Part shown: positions 16,713-32,400 of the stretch, piece after piece
How the letters are laid out: each line of letters begins with the position of its first letter
How positions within the stretch are numbered: the stretch's first letter is position 1
Translations under genes and position numbers: made by a program
DNA from: Patescibacteria group bacterium
GTDB lineage: Bacteria > Patescibacteriota > Patescibacteriia > UBA10025 > JAHIVO01
Length of the DNA stretch: 64,000 nucleotides
Assembly: GCA_049325535.1 (NCBI GenBank)
Contig: JBMOKY010000001.1
Coordinates: forward strand, 877,942-941,941
Reading direction: 5' to 3'
The notes under the pieces: generated by a model
Databases searched by the model: none
Told to the model about the DNA's origin: nothing
Seen by the model: only the letters and a program-made list of their open reading frames with translations

Positions 16713-19127
16713 CTACTCAGGCACGCCCGAATCCGTCTCTGGCGGCTTTTTTTTCGCGAAACTATCCTTCTTTTTTTCCACCGTATGTAGTTCAGGCGGC
16801 GCGAACGGGGACGCGCTCGCCTCTGCCGCCGATTGGGGTTTTTCTGATATCTCCGGCTCGAGCCCTTGTTCGACGTCTTGCAGCGGAGGCGGGGTAAACG
16901 CCTGATCAGTGGCGCCCATCTGTTCCAATTCTATTGTGGTAGTCCGGTGGGCTGCTTGCTCACCCGGTGCCGGCTTTTTGCGCAACTTCACCTTCAGTTC
17001 GATGATCCCCTTTTCCCTGGTCACCACGATCGGTTTGCTCTGGAATGATTCATAGCCCGATTTCACTACCACCAGATAGTATTTGCCCGGAGCGACCAGC
17101 GCCTGGAACAACCCCTCGCCGTTACTGACCCGGGTCCCAACCACATTACTCGTCTTCATATCATAGATACGCACCACCGCCAATCCCACCGGCTGACCAG
17201 TTGCAGCATCGGTGACTGCGCCCCATGATCGCTCATAATGGTGTGCAACTAAATATTTAAGGATGACCAACAAACCATACACCATCAGAAATAGATAGTT
17301 ATTCGTCGTCGGCTGGACGATCAGCGCGATCCAGCTGGCCAGCGTACCGACAATCAGCAAGGGTAAGCTCAGTCGCTCAAACACATTGCCGATCACATTC
17401 ATGACCCGCAACCACGTGACGCGCCGGACGGAAATATCACGCTGGTCCGGATCGATAGGTACATTGATAGCGAGCGACTGCTGATCCGGTTCTTTTACCG
17501 CAATCGTCTCACCGAGGTAAATATTCTCATATGGAGTAGCCGATGCTGAACGCAATAATTTCGAGGGAAACGTATATCCAGCATGGGCCGCCGTCACGAA
17601 GTATTGCCCCCGCTCAATCAGAAAGCCAAATCGACCCTCGGCATCAGTAATCTGCGTTTCCTTAAGCTTATTAAACTCCTTGGAAAAAATCCGGATGATA
17701 GTGCGGCGTACCGGCTGATTAGTGGTGCTATCAAACACCACACCCCAGGGTTTCCGCCGCTTGCCGACCGCCACCGGCACAAACCAGAGGTACCCCAGCC
17801 GGAGAAACAGGTAGACGACATTGCTCAGCTGGAGAGCAGTAATCGTCGAAGCGACACCGACGGCCGTCACGGCCGCGGTGGTACTCACCACCGGGGTGAT
17901 GATTTCCTCTACGATCCGCACCACCTGACTATTCTGCTGCAATTGTTTGACCACCCTACTCACCCGATCCGTCACATCCCGTACTGGTTTCGGGAGAATC
18001 TGGTTGATCGTATCGACGATGATACTATCCGGCTGATCTTCTTTTTCGATGACAATAACCGGTGGATTCGACCGGACAAAAGTAAATGATCCGGACGCCT
18101 CCCGGCTGTTTCCCGCCCGATCATAGGCTCGGACGATTATAGAATGCGCGCCCGAAGTAAAACCTGAATAGGTAAATGGGTCGGTTTCCCCGACCCCCAG
18201 CCTGATCAAACCAGCCTCGCCGGTGCTGAATTCATAATAATCCACTCCGGATAGTGCATCAGTCGCCACAAATCGCACACGTATGCTAGGTGAGGTGACC
18301 CGCGTACCGTCGAGAAATTCCAGGACAAATGTGTCCGGCGGGGTGATATCAATCTGTATACGAAAATGCGCCGTTTCCCCCCAACCATCGGCATTTTCCG
18401 CCCGGACGTGAAAATACCAGATGCCGTCACCAATAGCACTAAATGCATGTCCACCGCTCGTAGTGTCAGCAATAGTGTCAGGAATAGTGCCTGCCTGGTC
18501 GTCCAGTGCAAAACTAAACCCAGTGGCCCCATCAGGTGTCGTCCACGTAAATGACGGGTTCGCGTCACGGTACCAGGTATTTTCATCGGCGTGGGTACCA
18601 GAACTGACCGCCGGAGCATCAGGAAGGTTTACCACCGGCTCGGTGATGATGATATTGCCGATGGTAGCTTCTGCTACCAGCAAATCCGTCCCTTGCCCGT
18701 CATTGGCCAAAATCCTGCTCTGAGAAGTAACGATGGAAGCGGTACCAATGCCCGTGCCACGGAACGTGACGGTGATGATTGTACCAGCGGATCCACTGTA
18801 CCCCGGGGTAGGCAACCCACCGCTGAAGCTGATAGTGCCGTTTACATTTGAGTAGGTCGGTTCGACCGCCCAAAAGCTAAAAATACCCGTCCGGTCAATA
18901 CTCTCAACCTGCAGCAACGATGCGGGAAAGGTGATCGTCGACTCTGCGGCGTTCAGTGCCGTACCCTGCGCATCCACCTGGACGACGACGGCGAGCGTAT
19001 TACCTTCGGCTACTGATGCCGTGCCGGGCGACAAGGTAAATACAGCTGCATCAGCCGTTCCGGCCGTGCAAAAAATAATAATAATGGCCGCCGCTGTACC
19101 TATACCAAAAACAAATACTCGTTTCAT
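16713..19127 (-). CDS. Surface/membrane protein: signal peptide, cohesin-like beta-sandwich domain, polytopic membrane region, two carboxypeptidase-regulatory-like domains
   Basis: The ORF is called from 19175, but the likely start is MKRVFVFGIG (ATG at 19127), overlapping the upstream stop in an ATGA arrangement. The N-terminal domain is homologous to that of the adjacent 382-aa protein and fits the cohesin pattern. A middle region has about 6 TM helices. Two CarbopepD_reg-like segments follow (VVFDSTTNQPVRRTIIRIF... and VTDAATGQPVGLAVVRIYD...). Confidence 0.55.
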   Translation of the reverse strand: MKRVFVFGIGTAAAIIIIFCTAGTADAAVFTLSPGTASVAEGNTLAVVVQVDAQGTALNAAESTITFPASLLQVESIDRTGIFSFWAVEPTYSNVNGTISFSGGLPTPGYSGSAGTIITVTFRGTGIGTASIVTSQSRILANDGQGTDLLVAEATIGNIIITEPVVNLPDAPAVSSGTHADENTWYRDANPSFTWTTPDGATGFSFALDDQAGTIPDTIADTTSGGHAFSAIGDGIWYFHVRAENADGWGETAHFRIQIDITPPDTFVLEFLDGTRVTSPSIRVRFVATDALSGVDYYEFSTGEAGLIRLGVGETDPFTYSGFTSGAHSIIVRAYDRAGNSREASGSFTFVRSNPPVIVIEKEDQPDSIIVDTINQILPKPVRDVTDRVSRVVKQLQQNSQVVRIVEEIITPVVSTTAAVTAVGVASTITALQLSNVVYLFLRLGYLWFVPVAVGKRRKPWGVVFDSTTNQPVRRTIIRIFSKEFNKLKETQITDAEGRFGFLIERGQYFVTAAHAGYTFPSKLLRSASATPYENIYLGETIAVKEPDQQSLAINVPIDPDQRDISVRRVTWLRVMNVIGNVFERLSLPLLIVGTLASWIALIVQPTTNNYLFLMVYGLLVILKYLVAHHYERSWGAVTDAATGQPVGLAVVRIYDMKTSNVVGTRVSNGEGLFQALVAPGKYYLVVVKSGYESFQSKPIVVTREKGIIELKVKLRKKPAPGEQAAHRTTTIELEQMGATDQAFTPPPLQDVEQGLEPEISEKPQSAAEASASPFAPPELHTVEKKKDSFAKKKPPETDSGVPE

Positions 19128-20272
19128 ACCTTTTTTCGTCTCCGGATGACCATGGTACCCAGCACTCCGGCACACACTGCAAACACCACAGCCGCCAGCA
19201 GGAGTACATTTGAATCAAATGACGCCCGGGATGTGGAACCAGACCCCCCATGGACAACCGTTGTCTCAGATTTATTGCCGGCCCGGTCAAATGCCCGGAT
19301 GACAATATCCTGACGGTGTACCTGATCAGTCAATAAGTAAGGGCTCACGGCAGGTGATACCACTTGATTACCCTCTACTACTTCATAGTAGTCAATGCCC
19401 GAGGTGGTATCATACGAGCCAAAACTTAAATAATACCGGCCGCCAAACACATCCGGGTCAGTATCAATCTTTGCCGTGATGGAAAGCGGCGGGGTGCTAT
19501 CGATCTGCGCCCGCCGTACGCCGACGACTTGCCATTCATCACGAGTCAATTTTTCTCTCAATATGAAATAGTGTACCCCGTCCGCTACTGCTGCATAGGT
19601 AGCTGAATCCTGCGGTTCATCCACAAAATCATCTGGTACGGTGGTCGGTAACTCGCTCAGGGCGTAGCTATAAAACGCGCGGTCCCGCGGTTGCCACTGA
19701 GCAGTAAAGGTCGACCCCGGATACCACGTATCTTCATCCGGGTGCGTCGGCGACGTGATATCCAGTGCATAGGGTGACGCATTGACGATCGTATAGGTAC
19801 CGGCGACAGTCGTCAACGCCGCGGCGGTCCCCCGACCGTCATTCAGGTAGACTCCGCTCTGATCCGCGTCCACCACCACTGTGGCGGTACCCAGCGTCCG
19901 CGCCCGGAACGTCACTCGTATCAGCGGGCTATCCACCACCAAAGTACCATTTGGCTTGCCACCGGTAAAACTGATACTCCCCGCGTCGGCATTGATCGAC
20001 GGCTCATGCACCCACATGCTGAGGAATGACGTACTCCAATCCACCGATTCCACTTCCAAAAGGTCAGTGGGATAGGAAAGCGTCGCACTCACTGCATTGA
20101 TATATTCGCGCTCACTATCCAGATTGACCGTGACGATGAACGTATCGTTCACATCCACACTGGCAGTCTGCGGAGAGGGATTCATCACCGCCGCTTGTGC
20201 CGCCGATGCCACGGCCAGCAACGCGCCGCTCACGATGATGCTCCACATGAATTGTATAATCGTCCGACGCAT
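19124..20272 (-). CDS. Cell-surface protein with cohesin-like domain and a C-terminal TM anchor
   Basis: 382-aa ORF with a signal peptide (ending AAQAAV) and a cohesin-like domain paralogous to the 16713..19127 N-terminus. A second beta-domain follows, then a C-terminal hydrophobic anchor and a basic tail (LLLAAVVFAVCAGVLGTMVIRRRKKV). Confidence 0.55.
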   Translation of the reverse strand: MRRTIIQFMWSIIVSGALLAVASAAQAAVMNPSPQTASVDVNDTFIVTVNLDSEREYINAVSATLSYPTDLLEVESVDWSTSFLSMWVHEPSINADAGSISFTGGKPNGTLVVDSPLIRVTFRARTLGTATVVVDADQSGVYLNDGRGTAAALTTVAGTYTIVNASPYALDITSPTHPDEDTWYPGSTFTAQWQPRDRAFYSYALSELPTTVPDDFVDEPQDSATYAAVADGVHYFILREKLTRDEWQVVGVRRAQIDSTPPLSITAKIDTDPDVFGGRYYLSFGSYDTTSGIDYYEVVEGNQVVSPAVSPYLLTDQVHRQDIVIRAFDRAGNKSETTVVHGGSGSTSRASFDSNVLLLAAVVFAVCAGVLGTMVIRRRKKV

Positions 20273-20278
20273 AGGGAG

Positions 20279-21139
20279 TTACCCTGTCCAATAATAAAGT
20301 AATATGCTGAAATCAATGACATTCACGGTCGTATCGGCATTGATATCCGCCCGCGCCTGAGACGGGTTGGTCGCATTCCAAAAATACAATAGGATGCTGA
20401 AATCAACGATATCGACGCTGCCGTCACAATTGATATCGCCCGGAGTGGATGCGGCGCACTGATCCACGGCAGCTACTGCCAGCACAAGCGCGGGACCATC
20501 GACGGATGTTTGCGCACCACTGGTAGCGCGTGGAGTGATAATGTGAGAACCGGCGCTGAGTGTCGATCCGGCGATGGTACGTGTCCACGCACCTTGGGCG
20601 TTTGCCGTCACCGTGAATTGCTGGCTCGCGCTGCCTCCGCCAGCCAGGGTGGAAACGATATACATGGTCACGGTGCTACTGGGAACGCTGATACCCTGCA
20701 CCACGACTGATTCCGCTTCGGTAATGCTGGCGATAGACAGCGCCATGGTCGGCCCTAAAAAGATATTGCTTACCGCGGTCGTAGTTCCCTCGCCAAATGT
20801 CAATGTATACGACACCGTAGCGCCAATACGGCCCTGCGTATCCTGGCCAACTAATGTGTAGGTGTGTGTACCCGGAGTGACGATGGTGCTGGATGAAAAA
20901 GAAGCACTGCTATTTGCCGTCGGCGTGGCGATGACGATTCCATCCTGCCGAATCGTCACCGTTCCACCGGGATAGGCCAGACCACTGAACTGGATAATCG
21001 TGTCAGGATCTTCCGCCGGCGCTTCTGGTACGACCGCGCTGACCGTCACATCCACCGCCGATGCAAAACCAGCACTCATCAGCCATACAGCCATGAGTAC
21101 CAGCGTGCCGTACTGGAGTATAGTGCGCGGTCCCAGCAC
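20279..21139 (-). CDS. Secreted Ig-like protein with C-terminal type-I dockerin module
   Basis: 286-aa ORF with a signal peptide. It ends in two 22-aa Ca-binding dockerin repeats, GDINCDGSVDIVDFSILLYFW and ADINADTTVNVIDFSILLYYW, matching the D-x-N-x-D-G-x-V-D-x-x-D pattern. Confidence 0.65.
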   Translation of the reverse strand: MLGPRTILQYGTLVLMAVWLMSAGFASAVDVTVSAVVPEAPAEDPDTIIQFSGLAYPGGTVTIRQDGIVIATPTANSSASFSSSTIVTPGTHTYTLVGQDTQGRIGATVSYTLTFGEGTTTAVSNIFLGPTMALSIASITEAESVVVQGISVPSSTVTMYIVSTLAGGGSASQQFTVTANAQGAWTRTIAGSTLSAGSHIITPRATSGAQTSVDGPALVLAVAAVDQCAASTPGDINCDGSVDIVDFSILLYFWNATNPSQARADINADTTVNVIDFSILLYYWTG

Positions 21140-21150
21140 GATTGTATTGA

Positions 21151-22182
21151 TTACTTCTTATCGGTCGGGGGGGTGGATTGCGTATCGGTCGCACCGCGCT
21201 GCATAGCCTTGGCCACGATCCATTTATTGTACCGGCGCAGGAGCAGCCAGAGCAATACCAGGATAATGATGATGCCAATACCCCAAACGATCATCACATG
21301 CCAGGGCAACACCCAGAAGGTGAGCGTGGCTGATTTGTTTATGGTAGTATCGATACCCGCCTGCGTACTGATCGCTGCGGTATACCGGCCGATGGCGAAA
21401 TTTTTCCGCTCATTTTTGAATTCAGCCCAAAATCCAGTATCCGTCGACACGTCCCCTTTTTGCCATACCGTCTCATATTTACGGATAGTCTGCGGAAGCG
21501 TGGCGCCGTTTGACGGATTAAACTCCAGCGAAGCTACCGCATTGCCAAACATATTATTCACCTCAATCATACCGGTCGGCCGCAAATGGACGTTGCCCGA
21601 ATTTTCGTAGCGCGTAACAAATGTTAGCGGCAGCCGATTGGCGCTGGTCGCATCGTCCTGGAGTATAAATTCCTTGATGTCACCAGCTTCAATCACGTCG
21701 CCTGGCACCCGCGCCAGGAGAAGGATGCCAATCTTGGTGCCCACGGCGATCTGTCCGCCGCTCTGCGCCTCAGGCGGAGTATTGGAAAAAAACACTGCTG
21801 CATAGTGTCCGCCCGGTCCGGCATTTTCCGGAGGGGTGACGGTAATCGGAACGGTTATCCGATCCCCTGGTTCCAGATGAAACGGACCCTCTTCAATCGT
21901 CAACCACGAACTCAGGTCTTCCGGTTCCGCGTCGAACCGATACGACGGCTTGCCCGATTCTCCGGCAGCGCCAAAACTGGTCGCCTCGGTATAGAGATCC
22001 ACGGCGGCATCGGTTTCATTGAATAATTTGACTGACGTCTCATATTCCTGGCCCGGCGACACCTCAAACTCCAGCGACGGTGGGATAATCGTGATCGCCT
22101 GCGCGCCTGCCGCAGCCACCAGGCTGCCGGCAAACACCAGCGATGCTATGACAAGCATTTTTTTATACATACGTTCCTCCAA
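21151..22182 (-). CDS. DUF916/DUF3324-like cell-surface protein (CscA-like): signal peptide, beta-rich ectodomain, C-terminal TM anchor
   Basis: 343-aa ORF. Its size and architecture (signal peptide, two beta-rich domains including the segment ...ENAGPGGHYAAVFF..., C-terminal helix WVLPWHVMIVWGIGIIIILVLLWLLLRRYNKW) match the DUF916-DUF3324 proteins encoded in WxL clusters. The family assignment rests on architecture and motif resemblance only. Confidence 0.45.
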   Translation of the reverse strand: MEERMYKKMLVIASLVFAGSLVAAAGAQAITIIPPSLEFEVSPGQEYETSVKLFNETDAAVDLYTEATSFGAAGESGKPSYRFDAEPEDLSSWLTIEEGPFHLEPGDRITVPITVTPPENAGPGGHYAAVFFSNTPPEAQSGGQIAVGTKIGILLLARVPGDVIEAGDIKEFILQDDATSANRLPLTFVTRYENSGNVHLRPTGMIEVNNMFGNAVASLEFNPSNGATLPQTIRKYETVWQKGDVSTDTGFWAEFKNERKNFAIGRYTAAISTQAGIDTTINKSATLTFWVLPWHVMIVWGIGIIIILVLLWLLLRRYNKWIVAKAMQRGATDTQSTPPTDKK

Positions 22183-22246: not shown

Positions 22247-23287
22247 CTAGAATGTCGCGGTGGCGATGTAGGTCAGATCAGCGGTATAAGTGCCAGCCTC
22301 GGTATCAGAGGCGATATTGGCCACGTACCGGGCAGAATAGGTTGTGTCTGACGAAGGTCCGCCAACTGAAGCAACTTCATCCGGAAAATTTACGGTGTCA
22401 AAGGCAAAACCCGCAGCCGCATACGGCGCTGATACCGCTCCCGACCCGCCGGAGGCGGTAAAGCGAACGCCAAACTGTTCGGCACCACCGCCATTTGGCG
22501 CGGTATTGGTGCCACCAATAGCGGTGATGGTATCGAGTCCAGCCGAGGTCAGTGTAGCGCCGTCCAGGGTGATGGAATACCCACCGGTGGCATTGGTCCC
22601 AGCTACTAGATCATGTGCTCCTGTCTCAGTCGCCGATCCAGTGCCGGCGCCATTGGCATACCGGTCAGCCGTGGTACTGAGTGAACCAAATCCGACGGAT
22701 GTGTCAGAAATGCTGAAGGTCAATGACGGGTCTACTGTAGCACTGACCGTCACCGTGTCATCTGAGACAATAGCCACCGACAATGAGCCGGAATCTGATG
22801 TGGTGGTAATATCGATCTCGTACGTATCGGCTGATGAGGGATTGGTAATCTCACCATTGGCTATAGCAAGTGTCTTGGCTCCGGCCGTCACCGTATCTCC
22901 GGTACACACCGTTAGGGTAATATTTTCATCCGGCGCGCTGGTATCGACTGCTGCGGTTACTTCGGCAGCAGCGCCGGTACAAGCATCCACCACGGTCAGT
23001 CCTGTCCCGGTCATATCGGCGTAGTCCAGCGTACCTTTCAACACAAAAGCGTCTGCCGCCGGATCAAACTGGATTTTGATGGTCTGCCCTGCGGTCAGTG
23101 CGGTAGCGGTGGTAAAGGTAATCTCATGGTCTGAATCGGTCGATGCCTGTAGTCGAGTCATGGTATCACTCAGATTTGTCAAAGCATCCGCGTGGAGAGC
23201 CGCCCGGGGTATGCTGATGGTCGCCGCGACCAGGAGCACGAGCATGATGATGGAAAATCGTTTTGAATAACGTGTGGCTTGTTTCAT
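22247..23287 (-). CDS. Small secreted WxL-like-domain protein (CscB/D-like); C-terminal ~160-aa domain shared with the 4422-aa protein
   Basis: 346-aa ORF with a signal peptide. The C-terminal domain (FSISDTSVGFGSLSTTADRYANG...GGYSITLDG...AGTYTADLTYIATATF) aligns position by position with the C-terminus of the giant protein (FSISDTTIGFGSLSATQDRYATG...GGYSIDIDG...AGNYTSNITYIITPEF). The pattern resembles the WxL domain (F-x-F-G start, proximal G-x-G-WxL, distal AGTYTAxLTWTL), with W replaced by Y. Confidence 0.55.
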   Translation of the reverse strand: MKQATRYSKRFSIIMLVLLVAATISIPRAALHADALTNLSDTMTRLQASTDSDHEITFTTATALTAGQTIKIQFDPAADAFVLKGTLDYADMTGTGLTVVDACTGAAAEVTAAVDTSAPDENITLTVCTGDTVTAGAKTLAIANGEITNPSSADTYEIDITTTSDSGSLSVAIVSDDTVTVSATVDPSLTFSISDTSVGFGSLSTTADRYANGAGTGSATETGAHDLVAGTNATGGYSITLDGATLTSAGLDTITAIGGTNTAPNGGGAEQFGVRFTASGGSGAVSAPYAAAGFAFDTVNFPDEVASVGGPSSDTTYSARYVANIASDTEAGTYTADLTYIATATF

Positions 23288-23432: not shown

Positions 23433-26400
23433 TCAAAATTCCGGCGTTATGATATAAGTTATATTCGACGTATAATTCCCCGCCTCGGTCTGAGAGCTGA
23501 TATTACTCATATATCTGACTGAATAGGTGGTGGTGCTCGATGCGCCGGCTGATGTGGCAAATGTATCCGGAAAATTTATGAGATCATAAGCAAACCCCGC
23601 ATCGGCATACGGCGCGCTGACTGAGCCGCTCCCGCCGCTAGCGGTGGCGCGGATACCATACTGCTCGGTACCGGTCTGCGATGCGGTGTTGGTGCCACCA
23701 ATATAATCAATACTATCCCCCGCGCCTGAAGTCAGAGTAGTGCCGTCGATATCGATACTATACCCCCCGCCGCCACTGGTAGCAGCCGCCAGAGTATGCG
23801 CCTGCACTTCTGTGTCTGATCCCGTACCGTCGCCCGTGGCATACCGGTCCTGCGTGGCGCTCAATGAGCCAAATCCGATGGTAGTATCGGAGATACTGAA
23901 ACTCATACTATTGATCAACCAGCAGTCGTTATTGGTAGCGTCAAAATTCGTGCCATTGGACGCGTCGATATCGGGCGCCTGGCCGCAGGCGTCTGAATCG
24001 CGCACGTTGGTATTGGACACTGACCGGGTACCGGCCACATGGATATCCCACTGGGTGCCGGTGGAAGAACTGCGCAAGAAAACCCGGGTGCCCGTCGCCT
24101 GGCCATTGAAGGAAATATTCTGGAAGGTATAGGTCGATCCGGCATTGAAACGCAGCTTGGTATTGGCCGTCGTGGCAGTAAAATTATTATCCGTTTCAGC
24201 AGCGGCGCTGAATATTACCGAGGGACTGGTCTCTGGATTTGAGCCGGAGCTATTGGTGATGGTAAGATTATAAAATGCCGAAGCGCCGGTCATGGTGCCG
24301 GAAAATGTCTGCTGGTTGATGCCGTCGGCGGTAACCGTACCCGACCGCGCTTCAAAGATGTCATTATTGGTCCAGTTTCCCGCTAGATACACCGAATAAT
24401 TACTTAAATTTTTCGTATCCAGTGTACCGCCGGTAATGGTCAGGTTTCCATTGACATCCAGATTTGATTCCAGCTGAAAGGTGTCACCATTGGCACTGTC
24501 ATTTAATACGACGTGGAAAAAATCATCACACGCGGCACACTGTGCGCCGGATGAATCAATATAGATGGTACCGCCGGGTTTGGCCGCACCGGTAAAGGTG
24601 GCCGTCGCCAGCTGTGACGTGAATGTGTCAGCATTGGTCCAGTCCCCGCCGATAGTTATAGCATTGCTTTCTGTGGATTTGGTATCGAGTATACCATCGG
24701 TAATGGTGATGTCATTTTCCACGGTCAGCGGATCTTCGATCTCGACCGTCAAATCGTACGTGCCGCCGCCGTCATCGATCACCAGATCATACGGATTGCC
24801 GGTACCGGCGGTGATCAGATCGCTGGTCACATCGCTGACAGCGGTAGCCGGAATCGTGAATGCCAGCGTAGAGCCGACATTCGTGCCGTCGCTGTTATTC
24901 AGCTGGGCGCCGGACTGGAGGTCAAATTTTCCATCGGTGGCCATATAGGTCCCATCAGTCTCCACATCATCATCCACATCCAGCCGGCCACCGCCCGATC
25001 CCCCATCAGCCGCGATGGTGATGCCCCCGATCCCGATATCCAAATCATACCCATGGGTATTGAATACATCACCATCATTAATGGTCAAAGACTTAGCAGT
25101 CATGTCAGTGGCCAGGTCAGTCGTATCAGGCGACGTGCCAATATGCACGTCTCCGACGCTTGTTTGGGTGACGCGGTTATCGGCGTACGTCAGATCGCCG
25201 TCGAGAATCAGCAGACCGGACGTAGCGGGATTGAACGTAGCGCCGGATGCGATGGTAAAATCACCGGCCACATTCAGATTTGACGACGCGTGATGGGTAA
25301 ATGAGCCGCTGGACACCGTAAACGTACCATTGACATCCATGGCGTCAGCACTCGAAACTGATCCGACACCTACCTGAAAATTCGACAGAGTTTTTCCGCC
25401 TGACGTGATCACTTTACTGGCGCCATTCATCAGCAGCGTGTGCCCAGCGGTCGCCGTAAACGTGTCGCAATTGCTCAAGGTCGTATTGCCAGTCACGGTC
25501 CAGGTCGCAGTGCCAGTAGTCACGCTGTTTGTGCTGGCGCCGGCGGTGCAGGATAGATCGTTGCCCACCGTGATGACGGCATTGTTGCTGGCCGCATTCA
25601 GATGTACGTTATGTGACCCATCACCGACGACCAAATCATGGGTGATGCTGTTTGCCGTGGGGCTGGTGAAGGTATAGGCGGGTGTGGCGCCGCCGCTTGG
25701 TTGGACGTGCAGATTATAATAGTAACTATAATTCGACAGGCTCTGGATGTCGGTAGCGACCTCGCCGGTGTACCGGAACGTGGATGTATTTCCCACGATC
25801 CGACCATTATTGATCACCGGCCTTGATCCACCGGTGCCGCCCTGGGTGATCACCCACGTTTTTGATCCCGCATGCAGCGCGTGACCATAGCACGACTCCT
25901 CGGTACAGCCGCAAATCTCCAACGGGTCGTACACCGCATCGGTAGTGATGACGCCGGTCACCGTCATCTGTCCCGTGCCTGTCGCGGTGGTTATCCGGTC
26001 AGCGCACTGGGTGGTGGATGACAGATGGAAATTATTGATCGACCAGGCGGTGTCGCCACCAAAACTCCCGCTAGTCGAAGGTATGGTCAAAGTGCCGGCA
26101 GTCAGATTCAAAATCCCATCACCGGTAATATCACCACCAGTGACCGTCAGATTTTGCGCGCCGGTGACGGTCGTGCCGCTACCTACCACCATATCATTGG
26201 AAACGGTCATGGGATCATCCAGCGTAATCGTGCCACTGCCTGAAGTCTGGAAATTATACGGGGACGTGTCACTGCCATACACATTATCAACAAACAAGGT
26301 GCCGGTCCCGTTCATGATCAGGGTACTGCCCGTGTCTGGAATAAACTGACCACGGGTCAGCTCGACATCGCCGCCGACCGTCCAGGTGCCGGCGCCGGCG

Positions 26401-29400
26401 CCGATGGTGGTGATGCCACCAGCGCCGTTATTGCTGAAATCACCACCAATCGTCACGGATGGATCATAACCACTGGCGTCAGCGGTCAGCAAAAAATCGA
26501 AATCACTGTTTATCAAAGTCAGATTACCGGTAATATCCGGGGTTTGTGAACCCGCCGTACCGATGGTGACCTGGCGACTGGCGCCTCCGGGCATATAAAA
26601 TTCCACATCCCCGCCGTATGTCCGGTCGCTCATGATGGTATTGTTATTGGTACAATCGAACCGCAAGATAGAGCTAATCGTACCTGTCGTGGGAAATGCC
26701 GTCGCAGGCCGGTATGCAAGTCGTCCCGCGCCGGAAATAACCCCATTCAGGGTGAGGGACCCAGTCGAATTCAGAGTTACGGTCCGCCCGGACGGTATGC
26801 TCAGCGTATCGCTGGTATCAACAGTCATGGTATTTGACACGCTGAAATCGGTATTCTGAACCGTGACCGTACCGGTTCCCGAAGGATACACATCCAAATT
26901 ATATAATGTCTCATCATTCAGATCGAGCGTGACCGATGCCCCACCCACATACAAAGTACTGGTGCCAGCGCTCAGGGTCACATTGCTATTGACCGTCATA
27001 TTGGAATAAACTATCGTAGTGACGGCACTCTGCAGCGTATAGGTGGTGCTGCTGGATGGCTGGAGCTGGAGCGTACTATAAAAAGAATTATCCACGGTGA
27101 CGCTGGTACCAGTATACCGCACGATGGAGTTATTCACAGGCTGGCCAGCGAGGATGGCGTCCATGGGTGTGCCGCTGGACATGGTCAAAATAATCAGTTT
27201 GTCATTGGGGTCGATCACATGAGTCCAGGTTTCCAGATTGAAACAAGTATCAGTAGTCAGCGTGCCGGAAAAAGTAAATGAACCAGCGCCGGTAAATGAT
27301 GATGTTTTGCTGCCGCACGAGGCATGCGTAAACTCCATGCTGCTAAACGACCAATCTTCCGCGCCACCGATAGTTGACGTGTAGGGAAACGTCATGGTGC
27401 CGCCGGTCATAGCTACCGTACCGTTACCGGTTAGACTGCTCAGAATAGTGAAATCCCCCGTACCATCCATCGTGCCATTGACCGTCACTGTGCTAGTCAT
27501 GCTGGTCGCGTCCACGTGGAGTGCGGCGGGATCTGACAGTACATTGGCAATAGTAATACCGCCGCTGAAATACGTCGTCCCGGCATCGAACCACATCTCC
27601 GACCCATCTTCCAAATATAACTGGGAGCCGCCACCAGTGTTGATCTTACCACCCGGATCAAACGAATCACCGGACCATAGGAGTAAGTTTCGACCACTGT
27701 CGAGCTGCAGATATCCAGCATCATAGTAGATCACGCCCGCGTCGCCATTATCAGCAGCGAGCATGTCCGCATTGGTCATTGGTCCGGCGTTTTCGTGCCG
27801 GACGATGATCCAATTGTCATACAGCCGGGCGCCAGTGATGGCGGATGACGTATCGGCCGCCAGAGTCACGAAATTTGCCTGGATTGACTCCCCGCTGTCG
27901 ATATACAGGATGATGGGATCGCCGGCGCTCGATGGGGGCAATACACTGATACTGAATGTGCCGTCGCCGGAAGTACAGGTCGCCGTGTCAGCCGACTCAC
28001 CATTGGTCGCGCCATGGATCGTGATGTTATTTGCGCTGCAATTGTACAGCGTCGAACCTTGATCAGAATATATCGCGCCGCTAACCGTAACTCCAGTGAA
28101 TATCCAGCAGTTATTACTGCCGCCGTCATTGCTGGTGCCGTCATAGGCGCGGATCGAATCCCCGCCGCAGGCGCTGGAATTACTGGGATTGGCGTAGCGG
28201 ACTGACTGAGTGCCGGTCACTACCAGATTCCATGACCCTACCCCGCTGGATCGGGCCAGATCGATGCGCGTACCTACCGCCTGCCCGTTGATATTGATAT
28301 TCACCCACGTATGGGTGGTGCCACCGACGAACCCGAGATTCGTATTTGCCGTGGTAGCGGTGAAGGTGCCATCCACGTCAGTGGAGGAACTGAAGACGAC
28401 GCCACCGACCGAGGCATTGGTCACGATCAGATCATAAAATGAATTGACTCCCGTCAGGGTACCCGTGATGGTCTGGGTGCTGGTGCCATTCAGCGTGATA
28501 GTCGCCGTACCGGAGCTAAAATTACCGTCAACCGACATATTCCCGCCGATACTCATGGAGCTCCATCCCTGCAGCGAATCGCCAGACGGCAATGTGAAGC
28601 TGCCGGTAATGGTCACGGTCGGAGGTGTCATTTCTACCAAATTCGAACCTGATGGAGAATTCGATGAAAAATTCCCGCTGACGGTCAGTGTACCCGCGCC
28701 AGCTTCAAAAAGCCTGCTTCCTCCGCTGTTATTGTATAATTCCAAATCCCCGCCGTACGCCCGGGCGACAAACAATGTATCGTCAACCGGTCCGGCGGTC
28801 GCGTCGAGCCGGACGTCCACATCCAGCGTACCACCGGCGTCCAGATTTGCCGTGTCAGTGAATACTAATAACCCAGCGCCATTGATCGTACCATCACTCA
28901 GCCACAGCGGCGAGCCGGTAGTGACCGACCGACCGGAATTGATAGTCAGCGTGCTCCCGGACGAGACAATCAAGTAATTAGAGGTGGTAAAATCAGTATT
29001 GGCTACGGTAACGGTGTTATTCGTCCCATTCACATACACTCGATAAAACGTCTTACCGCCTGCATCTATGGTCTTCCCGTCACCAGCCATCTGCAGAGCT
29101 GTGCCTGACGTATGGGAAAAACTAACTAATGTGTCGATATATAAATCGCCATACAAACTGCCACCATTGAGGGTGTAGGATGGGGTGCCGCTGGCCGGAT
29201 CCAGGCGGAGATTGTACAGTGTGCCGCCATATACGTCGGTCGCGGCCGTCCCCTCGAAACTAAATGTCGATGCCCCCCAAGAACTTATATTCAGTCCGTA
29301 GGTAGGCGCACCGGTGCCGGTGCCGCTGCCGGTAAAATGCCAGATCTTATCGCCCGTCGCCAGTCGCGCATAGTAGGCACACTCCATGCCACAGGAGCAA

Positions 29401-32400
29401 CTCTCCGAGGTGAGCTGATGGCTGACGGTCATTTCCCCGCTCCCCTGGGCGGTCATGGTGTAGCTGGCCGTACAGGCCCCACTGTAGCCGGCAGTCAAAT
29501 TATAAAATGTCCAGTTGGTATTCCCGGCGATGGTCGAGGTGTTCTGCACTTCCACGGTGCCGCCGGTCATATTGACGGTGCCATTACCGCTGAAGTCCCC
29601 CAGCACGGTGATATTGCTGGTACCCTGGATAGTGCCGCCATTGGCGGTGATATTCCCCGTCACATTCAGCGCGTTGCTCACCACCAGCGTACCCAGCGTC
29701 ATGGTCACATTGCTATTCACTGTCGTGGCGGAATTCAGCGTCCACTGCCCGCCGGAGCCATTGAACACCACCGTATTCACATCAGCATCCGTGGCGCTCG
29801 TGCTGTCGATGGTTTCGGTAGTGGTTGATTCAAAAGTAATCGTCTCGCTCGCGGCGTTATAATCCCCATTATTATCCCAGGACCCAGATACGGTCACCGA
29901 CGCGGCCGGGGTCAATTGCCCGTTGATTTCCACATCATGCGCTTCGAGCAAATCACTCCCGGTCAAATCCAGATGCGATCCCGACAGGATGCGTAGTTTA
30001 TCATCAGCATACACATCGTCATCGTCGACGGTAAACACCGGGCCATCCAGAGATGTCCAGCAGGAAAACATGATGTCCTCATCATTCACATTTTGATAGG
30101 TCGTCGCCGTACAGTGGCTATCCGTCAGCGTGGGATTGTCATCACTGCCGATAGTCAGTACGTGCGTATCGAGCACCATGCCGGTGATGTGGCCACTGCC
30201 GTCGTAAATGGTGATAGCCGTCGATTCGTTATCATTACCCACGTTATCAATCCATACATAGACCTCATCCCCGGATGACGGAGCGGTCACACCGGAAATC
30301 GTCCAGGTGCCGGAGGAAATCGTGGTCGTGGATCCTTGGAGGGTGCTATTGTACGCGTACCGTACGGTCGCGCCTTCATTGCCATTGGCCGTGCCAGATA
30401 TGGCAAACCCAAAATTCCAGTTCGTATTGGTGCCACAGTTGGTATTGGTGCCGTCATCGGCACCGATCTCACTGCCGCTTGATGCGTCAGACCGGGCCAC
30501 ATCGACATATGAGACAGCCGTCTGGGTTCCGGAAACATTGAGCAGCCACGTGCCGGAGGTCAGATTTGAATTCCGAAATACGATGAAGTTACCTACTGAA
30601 CCCGCCCAATTGATATTATTGACGGTGTACGTAGATCCGGAATTGTACTCTACTTCCACGCTGCCAGTGGTGATAGTGTAGGTGCCGGAGATGGTAGCCG
30701 CGGCTGCGAAATCGATGCTGGGGTTAAAAGACGTGGAGCACCCGGACCATGAACCGGCGGTGTTGGTCAGGATCAGATTATAAAAATTATTAGTCGAGGT
30801 AGTCATCGATCCGGACAATGTCTGCTTGGCAGTTCCGGACAGAGTGACTGTACCGAGATTATCGGTAAACGTACCATTATTGGTGTAGTCTCCTTTCAGG
30901 TCAAACGAACCGGTATTACTCGCTTCCCATACGGTACCCGTACCGATAGTCAATGCTTGAGTAATGGTAAATGTCGGATCGTAGGTATTCACCTGCACGG
31001 TCAGGGTCCCGGCACCCGCCCGGGTAGTGGTCACCCCTCCAGTAATGCTGAACGTGCGGCCGGCGGTATCCCCGAGGGTGATCGTCCGTGATGAAGCGGA
31101 ATTATTATACAGTTCCAAGATTTTACCCGACCCGACAAGCGTCCGGGTGCTGGCGGTGCCATTGACAGTGATGTCATTTGACGTGGCGTCCAGCCGAATA
31201 TTAGCACTGATCGAAGGACTGGCCGGCAGTGTCGATGCCTGGACGATGAGAGTCCCGTCGCCGCTGATGATAGAGGACGAATTATTAGCCAGTGAACCCG
31301 TGCTGGCCACCGTCGCGCTGTATGAACTGGCGATATCCAGCTGGGTAAGAGACGCGATGCTTAAGGTGTTGGTTACGGTCATATTTCCCGCTTGCATGTG
31401 TGCCACAGTTCCAAATCCGGTCAGGGAAAAATTATAAAACGAAGTACCATTTGGATACAGCGCGTCATCATCATCACCATCCATAGCCAGCGTATTGCCG
31501 GACGTGGCAGTATATGTCCCACCGGTGAAATCGACGATGTTGCTCACGGTCCACGTGCCTGTGCCGGAAGTGATAGACTCGCTTCCGCCACCGGTGCCAG
31601 TGAAGTCCAAATCACCGCCGATAGTCACCGTCGGATTATTGGTATTTGCCGCTACCGCCATCGTCTGGGTGCCGGCTGCCAGTACATGAAAATGCGCGCC
31701 TGAACCGGACAGAGTATAGGTGCCCGAGGCCAGGGTGGCCGTGCGCGTCCCGGCACTACTGCTGGAATAAAACTCTACCGGCCCAGCATACGTCCGGGCG
31801 TCGATGGTCGTCGATGCCACATCGCCACTCGTCGCGTCATAGCGAGTGATGGCACTCAAGGTACCGGTCGTCCCCGGACCACCGGCGCCATTCGGATAGA
31901 CTAGCCGTCCCGCACCGGATACCGTGCCATTGAGGGTGGTGTTGGCCGCATTGGTATGGGTCACGGTCCGGTCCGATCCGATGGAAAGCACATCATCAGT
32001 ATCGATATTCAGAGTATTGGTCACGGTCACATCATTCGAGCCGCCGACCGTCACCGTACCGACGGTACTGTCACCGATGGTCAGATTATAAAATGTGGTG
32101 TCGGTGGTGCCATTGATAGCGCCATTGCCCACCAGTTGCACCGTACTGGTACCACCGGTATACGTGCCGCCGTTATTGGTGAAATCACCGGTCACCGCCA
32201 TGGTATTGTCATTGCCATTGAATGTCTTGCCGGAACTGATGATAAATGACCCGGCTAAGTTTAAGGTCTGCGTGGTACTGTCATTAAATTTACTGTCCTC
32301 ATCGACCTGAAAATTATAAAACGAATGTGCCGCTGCCTGCACGTCATAATACGTCCGGGACGAGGAATCACCGCCGCCATTCAGCCCTAAATGCAGCGTG

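What the first reader, a model, noticed from the sequence alone, without database searches (positions are those of the whole stretch)
16713..21139. Cohesin-like x2 plus dockerin gene trio: a cellulosome-style protein-protein docking module on the cell surface
20279-21139 encodes a secreted Ig-like protein ending in a canonical duplicated Ca-binding dockerin (GDINCDGSVDIVDFSILLYFW / ADINADTTVNVIDFSILLYYW). The next two genes encode paralogous N-terminal beta-sandwich domains with a cohesin-like pattern. One (19124-20272) is held by a C-terminal TM anchor and RRRKKV tail. The other (16713-19127) is embedded in a polytopic membrane protein that also carries two carboxypeptidase-regulatory-like domains.
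A dockerin ligand next to two membrane-tethered putative cohesins looks like a self-contained surface scaffolding system. It sits in the same operon as the WxL-like module.
The ATGA start/stop overlap at 19124-19127 indicates translational coupling.
Basis: partly seen in the sequence, partly recalled or inferred. Interest (0 to 1): 0.65.

Follow-up and report, generated by a model that had tools for sequence, protein, structure and literature searches.

The report
Cohesin-dockerin anchor of a CPR pilus
The three genes really do encode one secreted dockerin protein and two membrane-anchored cohesin proteins, but they are not a cellulosome: they are the conserved last genes of a newly described pilus operon of ultra-small (CPR) bacteria, and most likely fasten the base of the pilus to the cell membrane.

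Summary
Observation confirmed. The product of 20279-21139(-) has a signal peptide, two Ig-like domains and a type I dockerin (Pfam 34.2 bits, cutoff 22.9). The product of 19124-20272(-) has a cohesin (Pfam 28.2, cutoff 24.1). Its AlphaFold model matches solved type I cohesins best (TM 0.77, rmsd 2.6 A). Two more beta-sandwich domains and a C-terminal membrane helix follow. The first 350 residues of the 16713-19127(-) product are paralogous to it (33% identity, E 8e-46). Four hydrophobic segments and two CarboxypepD_reg domains follow.

The cellulosome reading is not supported. There is no enzyme, no carbohydrate-binding module and no multi-cohesin scaffoldin. In 85 non-redundant Patescibacteria loci the gene order is giant protein, pilin(s), WxLIP-like membrane chaperone, one dockerin protein, then one to five (usually two or three) cohesin proteins. 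The pilin and the giant's C-terminus match NCBIfam CPR_Pam_pilin_C, the Pam pilus of a 2026 preprint.

The mature N-terminus of the dockerin protein (VDVTVSAVV) carries the same strand motif as the pilin's donor linker (DDTVTVSATVDP). It lacks the acceptor domain.

Best reading (confidence 0.6): it is the pilus terminator and docks the filament onto the membrane cohesins. Binding itself is untested. I rate it a new variant of known kinds.

The parts
20279..21139 (-). D: secreted dockerin protein (286 aa), proposed pilus terminator and adaptor
   Evidence: ORF. Pfam Dockerin_1 34.2 bits > 22.9. AF2 pLDDT 94.5. Only one hydrophobic segment, the signal peptide.
21056..21139 (-). D signal peptide (aa 1-28, ...AGFASA|VD)
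   Evidence: Hydrophobic helix 4-25 in the AF2 model. A-x-A site read from the sequence.
21002..21055 (-). D mature N-terminal extension VDVTVSAVVPEAPAEDPD: putative donor strand plus Pro/acidic linker
   Evidence: Translation. Coil, not part of a domain, in the AF2 model. Motif [VI]x[VI][ST]Ax[VI] lies in the first 70 aa of 30/53 short D proteins, against 2/720 background proteins. Same consensus as the pilin linker.
20471..21001 (-). D: two tandem Ig/FnIII-like beta-sandwich domains (aa 47-127, 138-223)
   Evidence: AF2. Big_13 25.5 bits, below cutoff. Foldseek hits are tandem FnIII/Ig proteins, including RbmA 4be6_A at rank 2.
20282..20443 (-). D: type I dockerin with duplicated Ca-binding loop plus helix (aa 233-286)
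   Evidence: Translation. Pfam. PDB dockerins. Helices 244-252 and 274-282.
19124..20272 (-). C1: cohesin - two-domain stalk - C-terminal TM anchor (382 aa)
   Evidence: ORF. AF2 pLDDT 92.8.
19784..20194 (-). C1 cohesin domain (aa 27-163)
   Evidence: Pfam Cohesin 28.2 > 24.1. Foldseek best matches are type I cohesins: 6kgf_C TM 0.77, rmsd 2.6 A, 20% id; also 2vn5_C, 1g1k_A, 2w1n.
19250..19750 (-). C1 stalk: two beta-sandwich domains (aa ~175-341; THPDxxxWY... and IDxTPP...DxAGN motifs)
   Evidence: AF2 strands. OmpL47-type barrel 22.7 bits, below cutoff. Conserved columns.
19130..19213 (-). C1 C-terminal transmembrane helix and RRRKKV tail
   Evidence: AF2 helix 354-381. KD 2.62.
19124..19127 (-). 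ATGA stop/start overlap between C1 and CR
   Evidence: Sequence.
16713..19127 (-). CR: cohesin-like - stalk - polytopic membrane region with two transthyretin-like domains (804 aa)
   Evidence: ORF. P0001 100% id. 16 full-length homologues at 38-62% id.
18078..19049 (-). CR N-terminal cohesin-like domain plus two stalk domains (aa ~27-350), paralogous to C1
   Evidence: BLASTP 33% id over 352 aa, E 8e-46. Orthologues P0004 and P0006 carry PF00963. Own Pfam Cohesin hit absent at E<=1. Profile vs PDB cohesin 1g1k_A only E 0.6.
17763..17903 (-). CR hydrophobic segments 1-2 (aa 409-455), followed by GKRRKPWG
17448..17735 (-). CR first CarboxypepD_reg / transthyretin-like domain (aa ~465-560)
   Evidence: Pfam CarboxypepD_reg, 2 stretches. 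SdrD_B/NOMO-like hits at 470-521.
17241..17372 (-). CR hydrophobic segments 3-4 (aa 586-629)
16980..17222 (-). CR second CarboxypepD_reg domain (aa 636-716)
   Evidence: Pfam 55 bits > 32.3, best stretch 636-706.
16716..16979 (-). CR Lys/Pro/Glu-rich low-complexity C-terminal tail
   Evidence: Translation.
21151..22182 (-). H (context): signal peptide - two-domain beta protein - C-terminal TM; WxLIP-like / PamC-D-like chaperone candidate
   Evidence: TM segments. Family profile hits solved EfmWxLIP1 9i1y_A at E 3.7e-6 over nearly its full length. 9/16 members hit Pfam WxLIP_PGBD. Directly upstream of D in 60/76 loci.
22247..23287 (-). P (context): Pam-type shaft pilin (346 aa)
   Evidence: NCBIfam CPR_Pam_pilin_C 70.9 bits > 55.
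22727..22762 (-). Pilin linker DDTVTVSATVDP (putative donor strand), just before the C-terminal acceptor domain
   Evidence: Translation. Motif present in 37/49 pilins. Absent from the giant protein, whose similarity to the pilin starts right after it.
23433..36701 (-). Giant protein (context, 4422 aa): proposed tip subunit
   Evidence: ORF. Orthologues of 3700-9711 aa at the same position.
23436..23846 (-). Giant protein's C-terminal Pam pilin acceptor domain (no donor linker)
   Evidence: NCBIfam CPR_Pam_pilin_C 66.3 bits > 55. 64% identical to the pilin CTD.

Best explanation
The trio is the cell-proximal anchoring module of a Pam-type (donor-strand-exchange) pilus of a Patescibacteria/CPR bacterium.

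The filament is built outside the membrane from three kinds of subunit:
- An acceptor-only giant tip protein.
- A shaft pilin that has both a donor linker strand and an acceptor C-terminal domain.
- The 286-aa dockerin protein D as the last subunit.

D has a free N-terminal strand of the same type as the pilin linker, but no acceptor domain. Once its strand fills the groove of the last pilin, no further subunit can be added. D therefore acts as a terminator.

D has no membrane anchor of its own. Its C-terminal, internally duplicated Ca2+-type dockerin binds the N-terminal cohesin of the membrane-anchored proteins C1 and CR. These hold the cohesin away from the membrane on a two-domain stalk. 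The pilus is thus fixed to the cell by a non-covalent cohesin-dockerin joint. In the one experimentally studied Pam system, the terminator PamR instead uses its own transmembrane helix.

Shown here:
- Domain identities and membrane anchors.
- Conserved synteny.
- The shared strand motif.
- Absence of an acceptor domain in D.

Inferred:
- That the strand is donated to a pilin.
- That the dockerin binds these cohesins.
- That D sits at the proximal end.

Unknown: what the polytopic half of CR does.
For: (1) Identity of the modules:
- Dockerin: Pfam 34.2 > 22.9; PDB dockerin matches; two helices in the AF2 model, pLDDT 94.5.
- Cohesin: Pfam 28.2 > 24.1; AF2 pLDDT 92.8; Foldseek top hits are type I cohesins, TM 0.77, rmsd 2.6 A; 43/74 family members hit Pfam Cohesin.
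- CR is paralogous to C1 (E 8e-46).

(2) Pilus context:
- The pilin scores 70.9 bits and the giant's C-terminus 66.3 bits on NCBIfam CPR_Pam_pilin_C, cutoff 55.
- The Pam system is described in bioRxiv 10.64898/2026.03.03.709456.

(3) Conserved organisation:
- At least 356 species genomes encode a cohesin-family relative.
- In 85 non-redundant loci, 76 have a D gene and 75 of those have exactly one.
- In 75 of the 76, D is directly followed by a cohesin gene (median gap 4 nt).
- 60 have the chaperone-like gene directly upstream.
- 52 have pilin-type genes upstream; in 22 loci the upstream context is cut by the contig end.
- Three of three loci chosen through D homologues also carry cohesin genes.

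(4) Topology:
- D proteins have only a signal peptide.
- 200/206 cohesin proteins have at least one TM segment beyond it.

(5) Donor strand:
- [VI]x[VI][ST]Ax[VI] occurs in the first 70 aa of 30/53 short D proteins and in 37/49 pilins.
- Background is 6 hits in 287,434 residues. Only 2/720 background proteins, 1/208 cohesin proteins and 0/89 chaperone-like proteins have it in the first 70 aa.
- Consensus is xxQVxVTATVP in D and DDQVxVTATVDPS in pilins.
- In the AF2 model, residues 26-46 are coil outside any domain.
- Long-form D proteins (437-467 aa) in other lineages have a pilin-like N-terminal domain, the same motif at residues ~175-202, then an Ig domain and the dockerin instead of the acceptor domain.

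(6) The giant protein lacks the linker. Its similarity to the pilin starts exactly after DDTVTVSATVDP. This fits an acceptor-only tip.

(7) Analogy:
- PamR was described as an N-terminal strand, two FnIII domains (RbmA-like) and a TM helix, and was predicted to insert into the last pilin.
- D's tandem domains retrieve RbmA at rank 2 among generic FnIII hits.
Against: - No binding or complex model exists.
- CR's own N-terminal domain does not reach Pfam Cohesin. Its family profile hits a solved cohesin only at E 0.6.
- No NCBIfam Pam model other than the pilin C-domain and PamT matched. D, C1, CR and H gave no Pam hits. Kinship with the M. amalyticus operon therefore rests on the pilin domain and on architecture.
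- 23 of 53 short D proteins lack the strict motif.
- Same-locus covariation between the D strand and the pilin linker is weak: 5.55 vs 5.23+-0.16 identical positions, reached by 317/10000 shuffles.
- The RbmA match is one among many generic tandem-Ig matches with low TM.
- One dockerin facing two to five cohesin paralogues is not explained.
- The giant 'tip' protein starts with an HTH domain and a hydrophobic segment. If this is not cleaved, it would tether that end too.
- The Pam assembly model is itself largely AlphaFold-based.
Confidence: 0.6

Rival explanations
1. Assembly platform rather than permanent anchor. The membrane cohesins recruit D, and through it the growing filament, to the assembly site. 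The polytopic CR protein would be an usher-like or regulatory platform. The joint would be transient, governing initiation, termination or release of pili.
For: - Two to five cohesin paralogues per single dockerin.
- CR's elaborate polytopic region with two transthyretin-like domains, conserved in 24 loci.
- The positive-inside rule (KRRK after segment 2, Lys-rich tail) allows these domains to be cytoplasmic.
- The Pam preprint notes that pili are 'easily untethered' and found no dedicated trans-envelope machinery.
Against: - D lacks an acceptor domain. Once incorporated it must be the last subunit, and a terminal subunit with a docking module is most simply an anchor.
- Most lineages have no CR-type protein at all. 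They have only single-TM cohesin proteins.
Confidence: 0.2
2. Independent surface display. D is a small adhesin or Ig-domain protein shown on the surface through cohesin-dockerin binding. It would be co-regulated with pilus genes but not part of the filament, and the N-terminal motif would have another role or be coincidental.
For: - Cohesin-dockerin pairs are classically used to display proteins on cell-anchored cohesins (established knowledge of cellulosome anchoring scaffoldins).
- 23/53 short D proteins lack the strict motif.
Against: - Motif enrichment is about 200-fold over background and specific to D and pilins.
- Long-form D proteins contain a whole pilin N-terminal domain plus linker.
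- D always sits between the chaperone-like gene and the cohesins.
Confidence: 0.1
3. One reading: a self-contained cellulosome-like scaffold that assembles enzymes or glycan-binding proteins on the cell surface.
For: Genuine cohesin and dockerin modules.
Against: - No glycoside hydrolase, esterase, lyase or CBM domain in D, C1 or CR.
- Exactly one dockerin gene in 75/76 loci.
- One cohesin per polypeptide.
- No other dockerin or cohesin ORF in the 64-kb window by family HMMs.
- Obligatory association with pilin genes.
Confidence: 0.04
4. Reversed polarity. The giant protein stays anchored by its N-terminal hydrophobic segment and forms the base. D would cap the distal end, presenting a dockerin at the fibre tip that binds cohesins on the same or a neighbouring cell.
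For: The giant protein has an N-terminal HTH_17 domain (43.7 bits > 27) followed by a hydrophobic segment. This is conserved in orthologues.
Against: - Chaperone-bound subunits are membrane-tethered (H has a C-terminal TM). New subunits must therefore be added at the membrane-proximal end, which puts the acceptor-only subunit distal, as in chaperone-usher and Pam models.
- An A-x-A site (LARA|G) after the hydrophobic segment permits cleavage (sequence).
Confidence: 0.06

Closest known systems
Pam pilus of Candidatus Mycosynbacter amalyticus (Troman et al., bioRxiv 10.64898/2026.03.03.709456): PamA/B/E pilins, PamT tip, PamC/D TM-anchored chaperones, PamR terminator-anchor
   Same: - The pilin C-terminal domain matches the NCBIfam model above cutoff.
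- Linker/donor strand between an N-terminal and a C-terminal domain.
- Acceptor-only tip subunit.
- Chaperone-like proteins with a C-terminal TM helix.
- A terminator with a free N-terminal strand followed by two FnIII/Ig domains.
   Different: - Here the terminator has no TM helix. It ends in a dockerin, and two to five separate membrane proteins supply cohesins.
- The preprint does not mention cohesin or dockerin.
- The tip is a 3,700-9,711-aa giant protein rather than a single-domain PamT.
- The lineages are Kerfeldbacteria, Paceibacteria and Parcubacteria-type as well as Saccharimonadia.
- No NCBIfam Pam hit for H, D or the cohesin proteins.
Cellulosome anchoring: cell-surface cohesins binding the scaffoldin's dockerin (e.g. 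C. thermocellum SdbA/OlpB/Orf2p, R. flavefaciens ScaE; my own knowledge), and type I cohesin-dockerin complexes 1OHZ, 2VN5, 6KGF
   Same: - A cell-anchored cohesin receives the C-terminal dockerin of a secreted structural protein.
- The dockerin is an internally duplicated Ca-loop/helix pair, compatible with dual binding.
- Cohesin fold, TM 0.77 to CaCohA2.
   Different: - The anchor is a transmembrane helix, not SLH domains or sortase.
- The cargo is a pilus, not enzymes.
- No CBM, no glycoside hydrolases, no multi-cohesin scaffoldin.
- The dockerin helices are unusually hydrophobic and invariant (DFSILLYYWTG) across the family.
Non-cellulosomal cohesin/dockerin modules (e.g. Clostridium perfringens GH84C cohesin-FnIII, PDB 2w1n)
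   Same: The best Foldseek hit of C1 is the cohesin-FnIII double module 2w1n (E 1.4e-10). Like it, the cohesin is followed by Ig/FnIII-type domains and is used outside cellulose degradation.
   Different: In C. perfringens the modules link secreted glycoside hydrolases to one another. Here they are membrane-anchored and tied to a pilus operon.
WxL gene clusters of Lactobacillales/Bacillales: small WxL protein, large WxL protein, WxLIP = DUF916-DUF3324-TM (Hassan et al. 2023, PMC10599100)
   Same: - The chaperone-like neighbour H is a WxLIP homologue: profile vs solved EfmWxLIP1 E 3.7e-6; 9/16 members hit WxLIP_PGBD.
- The cluster logic is parallel: a small protein and a large protein share a C-terminal domain, and a TM-anchored two-Ig-domain partner is predicted to insert a strand into it.
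   Different: - The pilin does not match Pfam WxL at E<=1.
- That paper's description of the WxL cluster lists no cohesin or dockerin component.
- WxL proteins are described as peptidoglycan-bound platforms, not filaments.
Chaperone-usher pilus terminator PapH (my own knowledge)
   Same: A last subunit that donates its N-terminal strand but cannot be complemented further. This stops growth and sits at the base.
   Different: PapH has an ordinary pilin fold and remains at the outer-membrane usher. D has complete Ig domains plus a dockerin, and there is no outer membrane or usher.

Membership tests
Dockerin type I (Pfam PF00404) | Profile match above the curated threshold | tested here: met
   34.2 bits against 22.9, residues 233-280. 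PDB dockerins 2vn6_B at E 7.5e-4 and 5nrm_B at E 3.3e-3.
Dockerin type I (Pfam PF00404) | Two tandem ~22-residue segments, each a Ca-binding D-x-N-x-D-G...D loop followed by a helix | tested here: met
   DINCDGSVDIVD + FSILLYFW and DINADTTVNVID + FSILLYYW. AF2 helices 244-252 and 274-282. D235, N237, D239, D246, D265, N267, D276 are invariant in the 6-sequence alignment; in the 100-sequence alignment D235 and D246 are invariant and N237, D239, D265, N267, D276 at least 90% conserved.
Dockerin type I (Pfam PF00404) | Ca2+-dependent binding to a cognate cohesin | not testable with these tools
Needs AF-Multimer or biochemistry.
Cohesin (Pfam PF00963) | Profile match above the curated threshold | tested here: met
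   C1: 28.2 bits against 24.1. 43/74 family members match at E<=0.01, best 6.8e-11. CR itself gives no hit at E<=1; it is assigned by paralogy (E 8e-46) and through orthologues P0004 and P0006, which carry PF00963.
Cohesin (Pfam PF00963) | Nine-stranded jelly-roll beta-sandwich superposable on solved cohesins | tested here: met
   C1 model pLDDT 92.8. Foldseek: 6kgf_C TM(target) 0.77, rmsd 2.6 A; 2vn5_C, 1g1k_A, 4dh2_A, 5nrm_A and others. Not modelled for CR.
Cohesin (Pfam PF00963) | Binds a dockerin | not testable with these tools
   Only indirect evidence: one dockerin gene directly upstream of the cohesin genes in 75/76 loci.
Cellulosome | Scaffoldin with several cohesins in one polypeptide, usually with a CBM | tested here: not met
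   One cohesin per protein in the window. Only 2 of ~208 family proteins show two cohesin stretches. No CBM hit.
Cellulosome | Dockerin-bearing carbohydrate-active enzymes | tested here: not met
   The only dockerin protein has two Ig-like domains and no catalytic domain. No other dockerin ORF in the window.
Pam pilus system (CPR) | Pilin with the Pam C-terminal (truncated Ig, acceptor) domain | tested here: met
   NCBIfam NF058581 scores 70.9 bits (pilin) and 66.3 bits (giant C-terminus), cutoff 55.
Pam pilus system (CPR) | Conserved donor linker strand between the N- and C-terminal domains | tested here: met
   DDTVTVSATVDP lies directly before the C-domain. The motif is in 37/49 pilins. That it is the donated strand is inferred from the preprint's description.
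Pam pilus system (CPR) | PapD-like chaperones with a C-terminal TM helix (PamC/PamD) | tested here: inconclusive
   H has a signal peptide, about 270 beta-rich residues and a C-terminal TM, and is homologous to WxLIP. No NCBIfam Pam chaperone hit. Fold not modelled.
Pam pilus system (CPR) | PamR-type terminator: N-terminal strand + two FnIII domains + own TM helix | tested here: not met
   D has the strand and two beta-sandwich domains, but no TM helix. It has a dockerin instead. This is the point of difference.
Pam pilus system (CPR) | Filament actually formed | not testable with these tools
   Uncultured organism; no imaging.
WxL cluster | WxL domain with dual Trp-x-Leu motifs (Pfam WxL) | tested here: not met
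   No WxL hit for the pilin at E<=1.
WxL cluster | WxLIP (DUF916-DUF3324-TM) partner | tested here: met
   H-family profile vs EfmWxLIP1 9i1y_A: E 3.7e-6, profile 39-277 to chain 23-257. 9/16 members hit WxLIP_PGBD, best 1.7e-5. The window's own H is below threshold (14.5 bits against 27.3).

The most novel reading that the evidence does not exclude
Across hundreds of Patescibacteria species, a Ca2+-dependent cohesin-dockerin joint is the only link between a donor-strand-exchange pilus and the cell. It would be a built-in, reversible 'quick-release' coupling. In this reading the several cohesin paralogues are alternative docking stations. In the Kerfeldbacteria-type clade, the polytopic CR paralogue would pass pilus occupancy or load across the membrane to its two (possibly cytoplasmic) transthyretin-like domains. 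Together with the WxLIP homology of the chaperone, this would make Pam pili, Firmicute WxL clusters and this cohesin-anchored form three versions of one ancient monoderm fibre system. They would differ mainly in how the base is fixed.
Probability: 0.15. Interest if true: 0.8.

Novelty: new variant of a known kind. Interest (0 to 1): 0.6.

Why it matters
CPR/Patescibacteria are a very large, mostly uncultured part of bacterial diversity, and they live attached to host cells. Their attachment organelles are only now being identified.

The Pam pilus preprint left open how filaments are held on the cell. It noted that they detach easily.

If this reading is right, a large group of these bacteria fix their pili by a cohesin-dockerin joint. 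At least 356 species genomes carry the cohesin family, and more than 700 protein clusters carry the dockerin protein.

Several consequences follow:
- It gives the first concrete function for the widespread 'non-cellulosomal' cohesin/dockerin genes of CPR genomes.
- It predicts a simple test: release of pili by chelators.
- It supplies a small, well-behaved protein pair for biochemical validation without culturing the organism.
- It extends Pam-type pili beyond Saccharimonadia and Microgenomatia.

Tried and rejected
(1) Complex modelling. No interface model was obtained.

(2) Link to the essential 'dockerin' protein SEML1_0315 of Southlakia epibionticum (PMC10633639). Its supplement shows a 2,784-bp stand-alone gene next to a tRNA gene, annotated with three Ig/FnIII-type domains. 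It is not an orthologue, so I dropped it.

(3) Direct sequence proof that CR's N-terminal domain is a cohesin. A profile of 15 CR N-termini against PDB gave only 1g1k_A at E 0.6. The assignment rests on paralogy.

(4) NCBIfam Pam models for H, D, C1 and CR: no hits.

(5) Locus-specific covariation of the D strand with the pilin linker. The first attempt was mis-registered and showed nothing. Re-anchored, the excess is small.

(6) A search for cultured or named organisms with the module, using a Saccharimonadia D query. It returned 703 clusters but no named cultured strain. Whether the M. amalyticus pam operon has a cohesin or dockerin could not be checked.

(7) Literature searches for cohesin/dockerin together with CPR, Patescibacteria, pilus or donor strand found nothing relevant.

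(8) Promoter and terminator scans gave only consensus-level matches, not above shuffles in a useful way.

Full report
WHAT IS THERE

The region is the 3' end of a run of six co-oriented minus-strand genes:
- A 4,422-aa giant protein (23433-36701).
- A 346-aa protein, P (22247-23287).
- A 343-aa protein, H (21151-22182).
- The 286-aa dockerin protein, D (20279-21139).
- The 382-aa protein C1 (19124-20272).
- The 804-aa protein CR (16713-19127).

Gaps are tiny. D's stop and C1's start are 6 nt apart. C1 and CR overlap in ATGA at 19127-19124. Downstream lie signal peptidase I, HisRS, HIT, S21 and YqeY. Elsewhere the window holds ordinary housekeeping genes and type IV pilus genes. Homologues and synteny place the organism in Patescibacteria/CPR, near Kerfeldbacteria.

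CHECK OF THE OBSERVATION

D passes Pfam Dockerin_1 (34.2 bits, cutoff 22.9) and matches solved dockerins. Its two repeats, DINCDGSVDIVDFSILLYFW and DINADTTVNVIDFSILLYYW, keep the Ca-ligand positions. The AlphaFold2 model (100-sequence alignment, pLDDT 94.5) shows, in order:
- A signal-peptide helix.
- A 20-residue coil.
- Two beta-sandwich domains.
- Two dockerin helices.

C1 passes Pfam Cohesin (28.2 bits, cutoff 24.1). Its model (pLDDT 92.8) has a 27-163 sandwich. The best PDB matches of this sandwich are type I cohesins: CaCohA2 6kgf_C (TM 0.77, rmsd 2.6 A, 20% identity), C. cellulolyticum 2vn5_C and 1g1k_A, and the C. perfringens cohesin-FnIII pair 2w1n. Two further sandwiches and a C-terminal helix (354-381) follow.

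CR does not itself reach Pfam Cohesin, and a profile of its orthologues hits a solved cohesin only at E 0.6. It is, however, 33% identical to C1 over 352 residues (E 8e-46). Some orthologues carry PF00963, and 43 of 74 family members match Cohesin. CR continues with four hydrophobic segments and two CarboxypepD_reg domains.

So the description is correct.

SURROUNDINGS CHANGE THE INTERPRETATION

P scores 70.9 bits on NCBIfam 'CPR_Pam_pilin_C' (cutoff 55). The last 137 residues of the giant protein score 66.3 bits and are 64% identical to P's C-terminal domain.

The Pam pilus was described in 2026 from cryo-EM of Ca. Mycosynbacter amalyticus filaments. Its pilins have an N-terminal sandwich, a linker strand that is donated to the open C-terminal Ig-like domain of the neighbouring subunit, and that acceptor domain. 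The other parts are:
- PamT, an acceptor-only tip.
- PamC/D, PapD-like chaperones with a C-terminal TM helix.
- PamR, which has an N-terminal strand, two FnIII domains resembling RbmA, and a TM helix. It is predicted to plug the last pilin and anchor the filament.

That paper does not mention cohesin or dockerin.

CONSERVATION

Four divergent genomes reached through CR homologues have the same six-gene order.

A scan of one genome per species found 356 genomes encoding a relative of the cohesin protein. I kept 80 loci, from Kerfeld-, Nealson-, Uhr-, Buchanan-, Nomura-, Niyogi- and Sungii-bacteria, Paceibacterota, Minisyncoccia and Saccharibacteria. Family HMMs built from the window proteins were run on all six-frame ORFs. 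They gave the following in 85 non-redundant loci:
- 76 loci have a dockerin gene; 75 of these have exactly one.
- In 75 of the 76, the dockerin gene is directly followed by a cohesin gene (median gap 4 nt).
- 60 have an H-type gene directly upstream.
- 52 have pilin-type genes further upstream. In 22 loci the upstream DNA is cut off by the contig end.
- The number of cohesin genes after D is 1 (4 loci), 2 (41), 3 (22), 4 (7) or 5 (2).

Because these loci were found through the cohesin, I also checked three loci chosen through D homologues. All three have cohesin genes downstream and an H gene upstream.

D proteins have only a signal peptide. In contrast, 200 of 206 cohesin proteins have at least one further TM segment. 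CR-type polytopic proteins occur in 24 loci of one clade. Elsewhere the extra cohesin proteins are 450-700-aa single-TM proteins.

THE KEY CLUE

After its A-x-A cleavage site, D begins VDVTVSAVVPEAPAEDPD. P's linker, immediately before its acceptor domain, reads DDTVTVSATVDP. The giant protein's similarity to P starts exactly after this segment. This fits an acceptor-only tip.

I counted the motif [VI]x[VI][ST]Ax[VI] across the loci:

| Protein set | With motif |
|---|---|
| Short D proteins, first 70 residues | 30 of 53 |
| Pilins | 37 of 49 |
| Other proteins, first 70 residues | 2 of 720 |
| Other proteins, all residues | 6 hits in 287,434 |
| Cohesin proteins, first 70 residues | 1 of 208 |
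| H proteins, first 70 residues | 0 of 89 |

In register, the consensus is xxQVxVTATVP for D and DDQVxVTATVDPS for pilins. Locus-specific covariation is only weak (317 of 10,000 shuffles reach the observed identity).

In other lineages D is 437-467 aa. It then starts with a pilin-like N-terminal domain, has the same motif at residues ~175-202, and continues with an Ig domain and the dockerin where a pilin would have its acceptor domain.

In the window's D model the motif lies in a coil outside any domain. D's tandem domains retrieve V. cholerae RbmA at rank 2, among many generic FnIII/Ig tandems. This echoes the description of PamR, but weakly.

MECHANISM PROPOSED

Shown here:
- The domain identities.
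- Membrane tethering of all cohesin proteins and the lack of tethering of D.
- The invariant gene order.
- The shared strand motif.
- The absence of an acceptor domain in D and of a donor linker in the giant protein.

Inferred:
1. Subunits are exported by Sec. They are held by the membrane-anchored H protein and added at the membrane-proximal end. The giant acceptor-only protein therefore ends up distal, as the adhesin.
2. Pilins follow.
3. D's N-terminal strand fills the last pilin's groove and stops growth.
4. D's dockerin binds the cohesin of C1 and/or CR. These hold the cohesin at the end of a two-domain stalk above the membrane.

In effect, PamR's covalent 'strand - two domains - TM helix' is split into an adaptor and an anchor joined by cohesin-dockerin. 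The near-identical dockerin repeats allow a dual binding mode, as in type I dockerins (established knowledge). The role of CR's polytopic half is unknown. The KRRK after the second hydrophobic segment and the Lys-rich tail leave open whether its transthyretin-like domains are cytoplasmic.

RIVALS

- A transient assembly or release platform (0.2).
- Independent display of D (0.1).
- Reversed polarity with the giant protein as base (0.06). This was prompted by its conserved N-terminal HTH_17 domain and hydrophobic segment.
- A true cellulosome-like enzyme scaffold (0.04), contradicted by the lack of enzymes, CBMs and scaffoldins.

COMPARISON WITH WHAT IS KNOWN

The modules are ordinary members of the cohesin and dockerin families. 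GenBank already names these proteins that way. The system is not a cellulosome. It works like cellulosome anchoring (a cell-bound cohesin receives the dockerin of a secreted structural protein), but the cargo is a pilus.

It belongs with Pam pili by the pilin domain and by operon logic. It fails the PamR feature (own TM helix), which is exactly where it differs.

The H family is homologous to the Enterococcus WxL-interacting protein (E 3.7e-6 to solved EfmWxLIP1; Pfam WxLIP_PGBD in 9/16 members). The WxL cluster logic is parallel: a small and a large protein share a C-terminal domain, and a TM-anchored two-Ig partner is predicted to insert a strand (PMC10599100). The Pam preprint does not mention WxL.

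I found no paper connecting cohesin/dockerin with CPR pili or with donor-strand pili.

VERDICT

- Observation: confirmed.
- Interpretation: partly supported. It is a docking module, but for a pilus, not a cellulosome.
- Novelty: new variant of known kinds.
- Interest: 0.6.

The weakest link is that no binding or complex evidence could be obtained here.

Noticed in passing
window 35802-36701 (-), N-terminus of the giant ORF 23433-36701: The 4,422-aa surface protein starts with a cytoplasmic-type HTH_17/MerR DNA-binding domain (aa 45-94, 43.7 bits against cutoff 27). A hydrophobic segment ending ...YLARA|GQAP follows. HTH_17 is also listed for the orthologous giants in L001, L004 and L008. A DNA-binding domain fused ahead of the export signal of a giant adhesin is odd and might couple secretion to regulation.
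   Followed up: partly
window 21151-22182 (-), and H-type genes in 67 loci: The Pam-type 'chaperone' family is homologous to the WxL-interacting protein of Enterococcus faecium (PDB 9i1y_A, E 3.7e-6 over nearly the whole chain). 9/16 members hit Pfam WxLIP_PGBD. This suggests that CPR Pam pili and Firmicute WxL clusters are related systems. The Pam preprint does not mention WxL.
   Followed up: partly
window 4553-12745 (-): A second giant protein (2,730 aa) begins with a T4SS_pilin domain (PF18895, 41.7 bits against cutoff 26.6), followed by Big_5, Big_7 and Cys-rich repeats. Downstream are a Big_7/choice-of-anchor-X protein (2979-4487) and two bacterial TSP3-repeat proteins (1202-2960).
   Followed up: no
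window 41030-43168 (+): Type IV pilus genes (T2SSE-family ATPase, PilM) lie 20 kb from the Pam-type cluster. The 64-kb window therefore carries parts of three different filament systems.
   Followed up: no
L050, L051, L053, L054, L059, L067, L083, L091 (D genes of 437-467 aa): Long-form dockerin proteins start with a pilin-like N-terminal domain plus the donor-strand motif, and replace the acceptor domain by an Ig domain and a dockerin. A third form (e.g. L048, L052, L057, L064, L074) has a different N-terminal domain rich in SxNFxL repeats.
   Followed up: partly
window 15507-16154 (-); L008, L092: Signal peptidase I sits directly downstream of the cluster. The glycosyltransferase-2, SPase I, HisRS, HIT order is kept in distant genomes. 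This may be coincidental synteny or a dedicated processing enzyme.
   Followed up: no
L015, L023, L025, L043, L050, L059, L084, L091 (record titles): Contigs carrying this CPR-type cluster are titled 'uncultured Gammaproteobacteria' or 'Aminicenantia' in GenBank. These are probably binning or taxonomy-label errors.
   Followed up: no
window 23368-23426 (-): Two sigma-70-like promoter matches (10/12) lie in the gap between the giant gene and the pilin gene. They hint that the pilin-to-CR genes can be transcribed separately from the giant gene. These are consensus matches only.
   Followed up: no
D proteins, e.g. window 20282-20470 (-): Conserved cysteines flank the dockerin: CxxxxPGDINCDG in the Kerfeld-type clade; VCxGADLNFDG...RCADINFDG in another. 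This suggests a clade-specific disulfide stapling the dockerin. The family also always ends in ...YYWTG.
   Followed up: no
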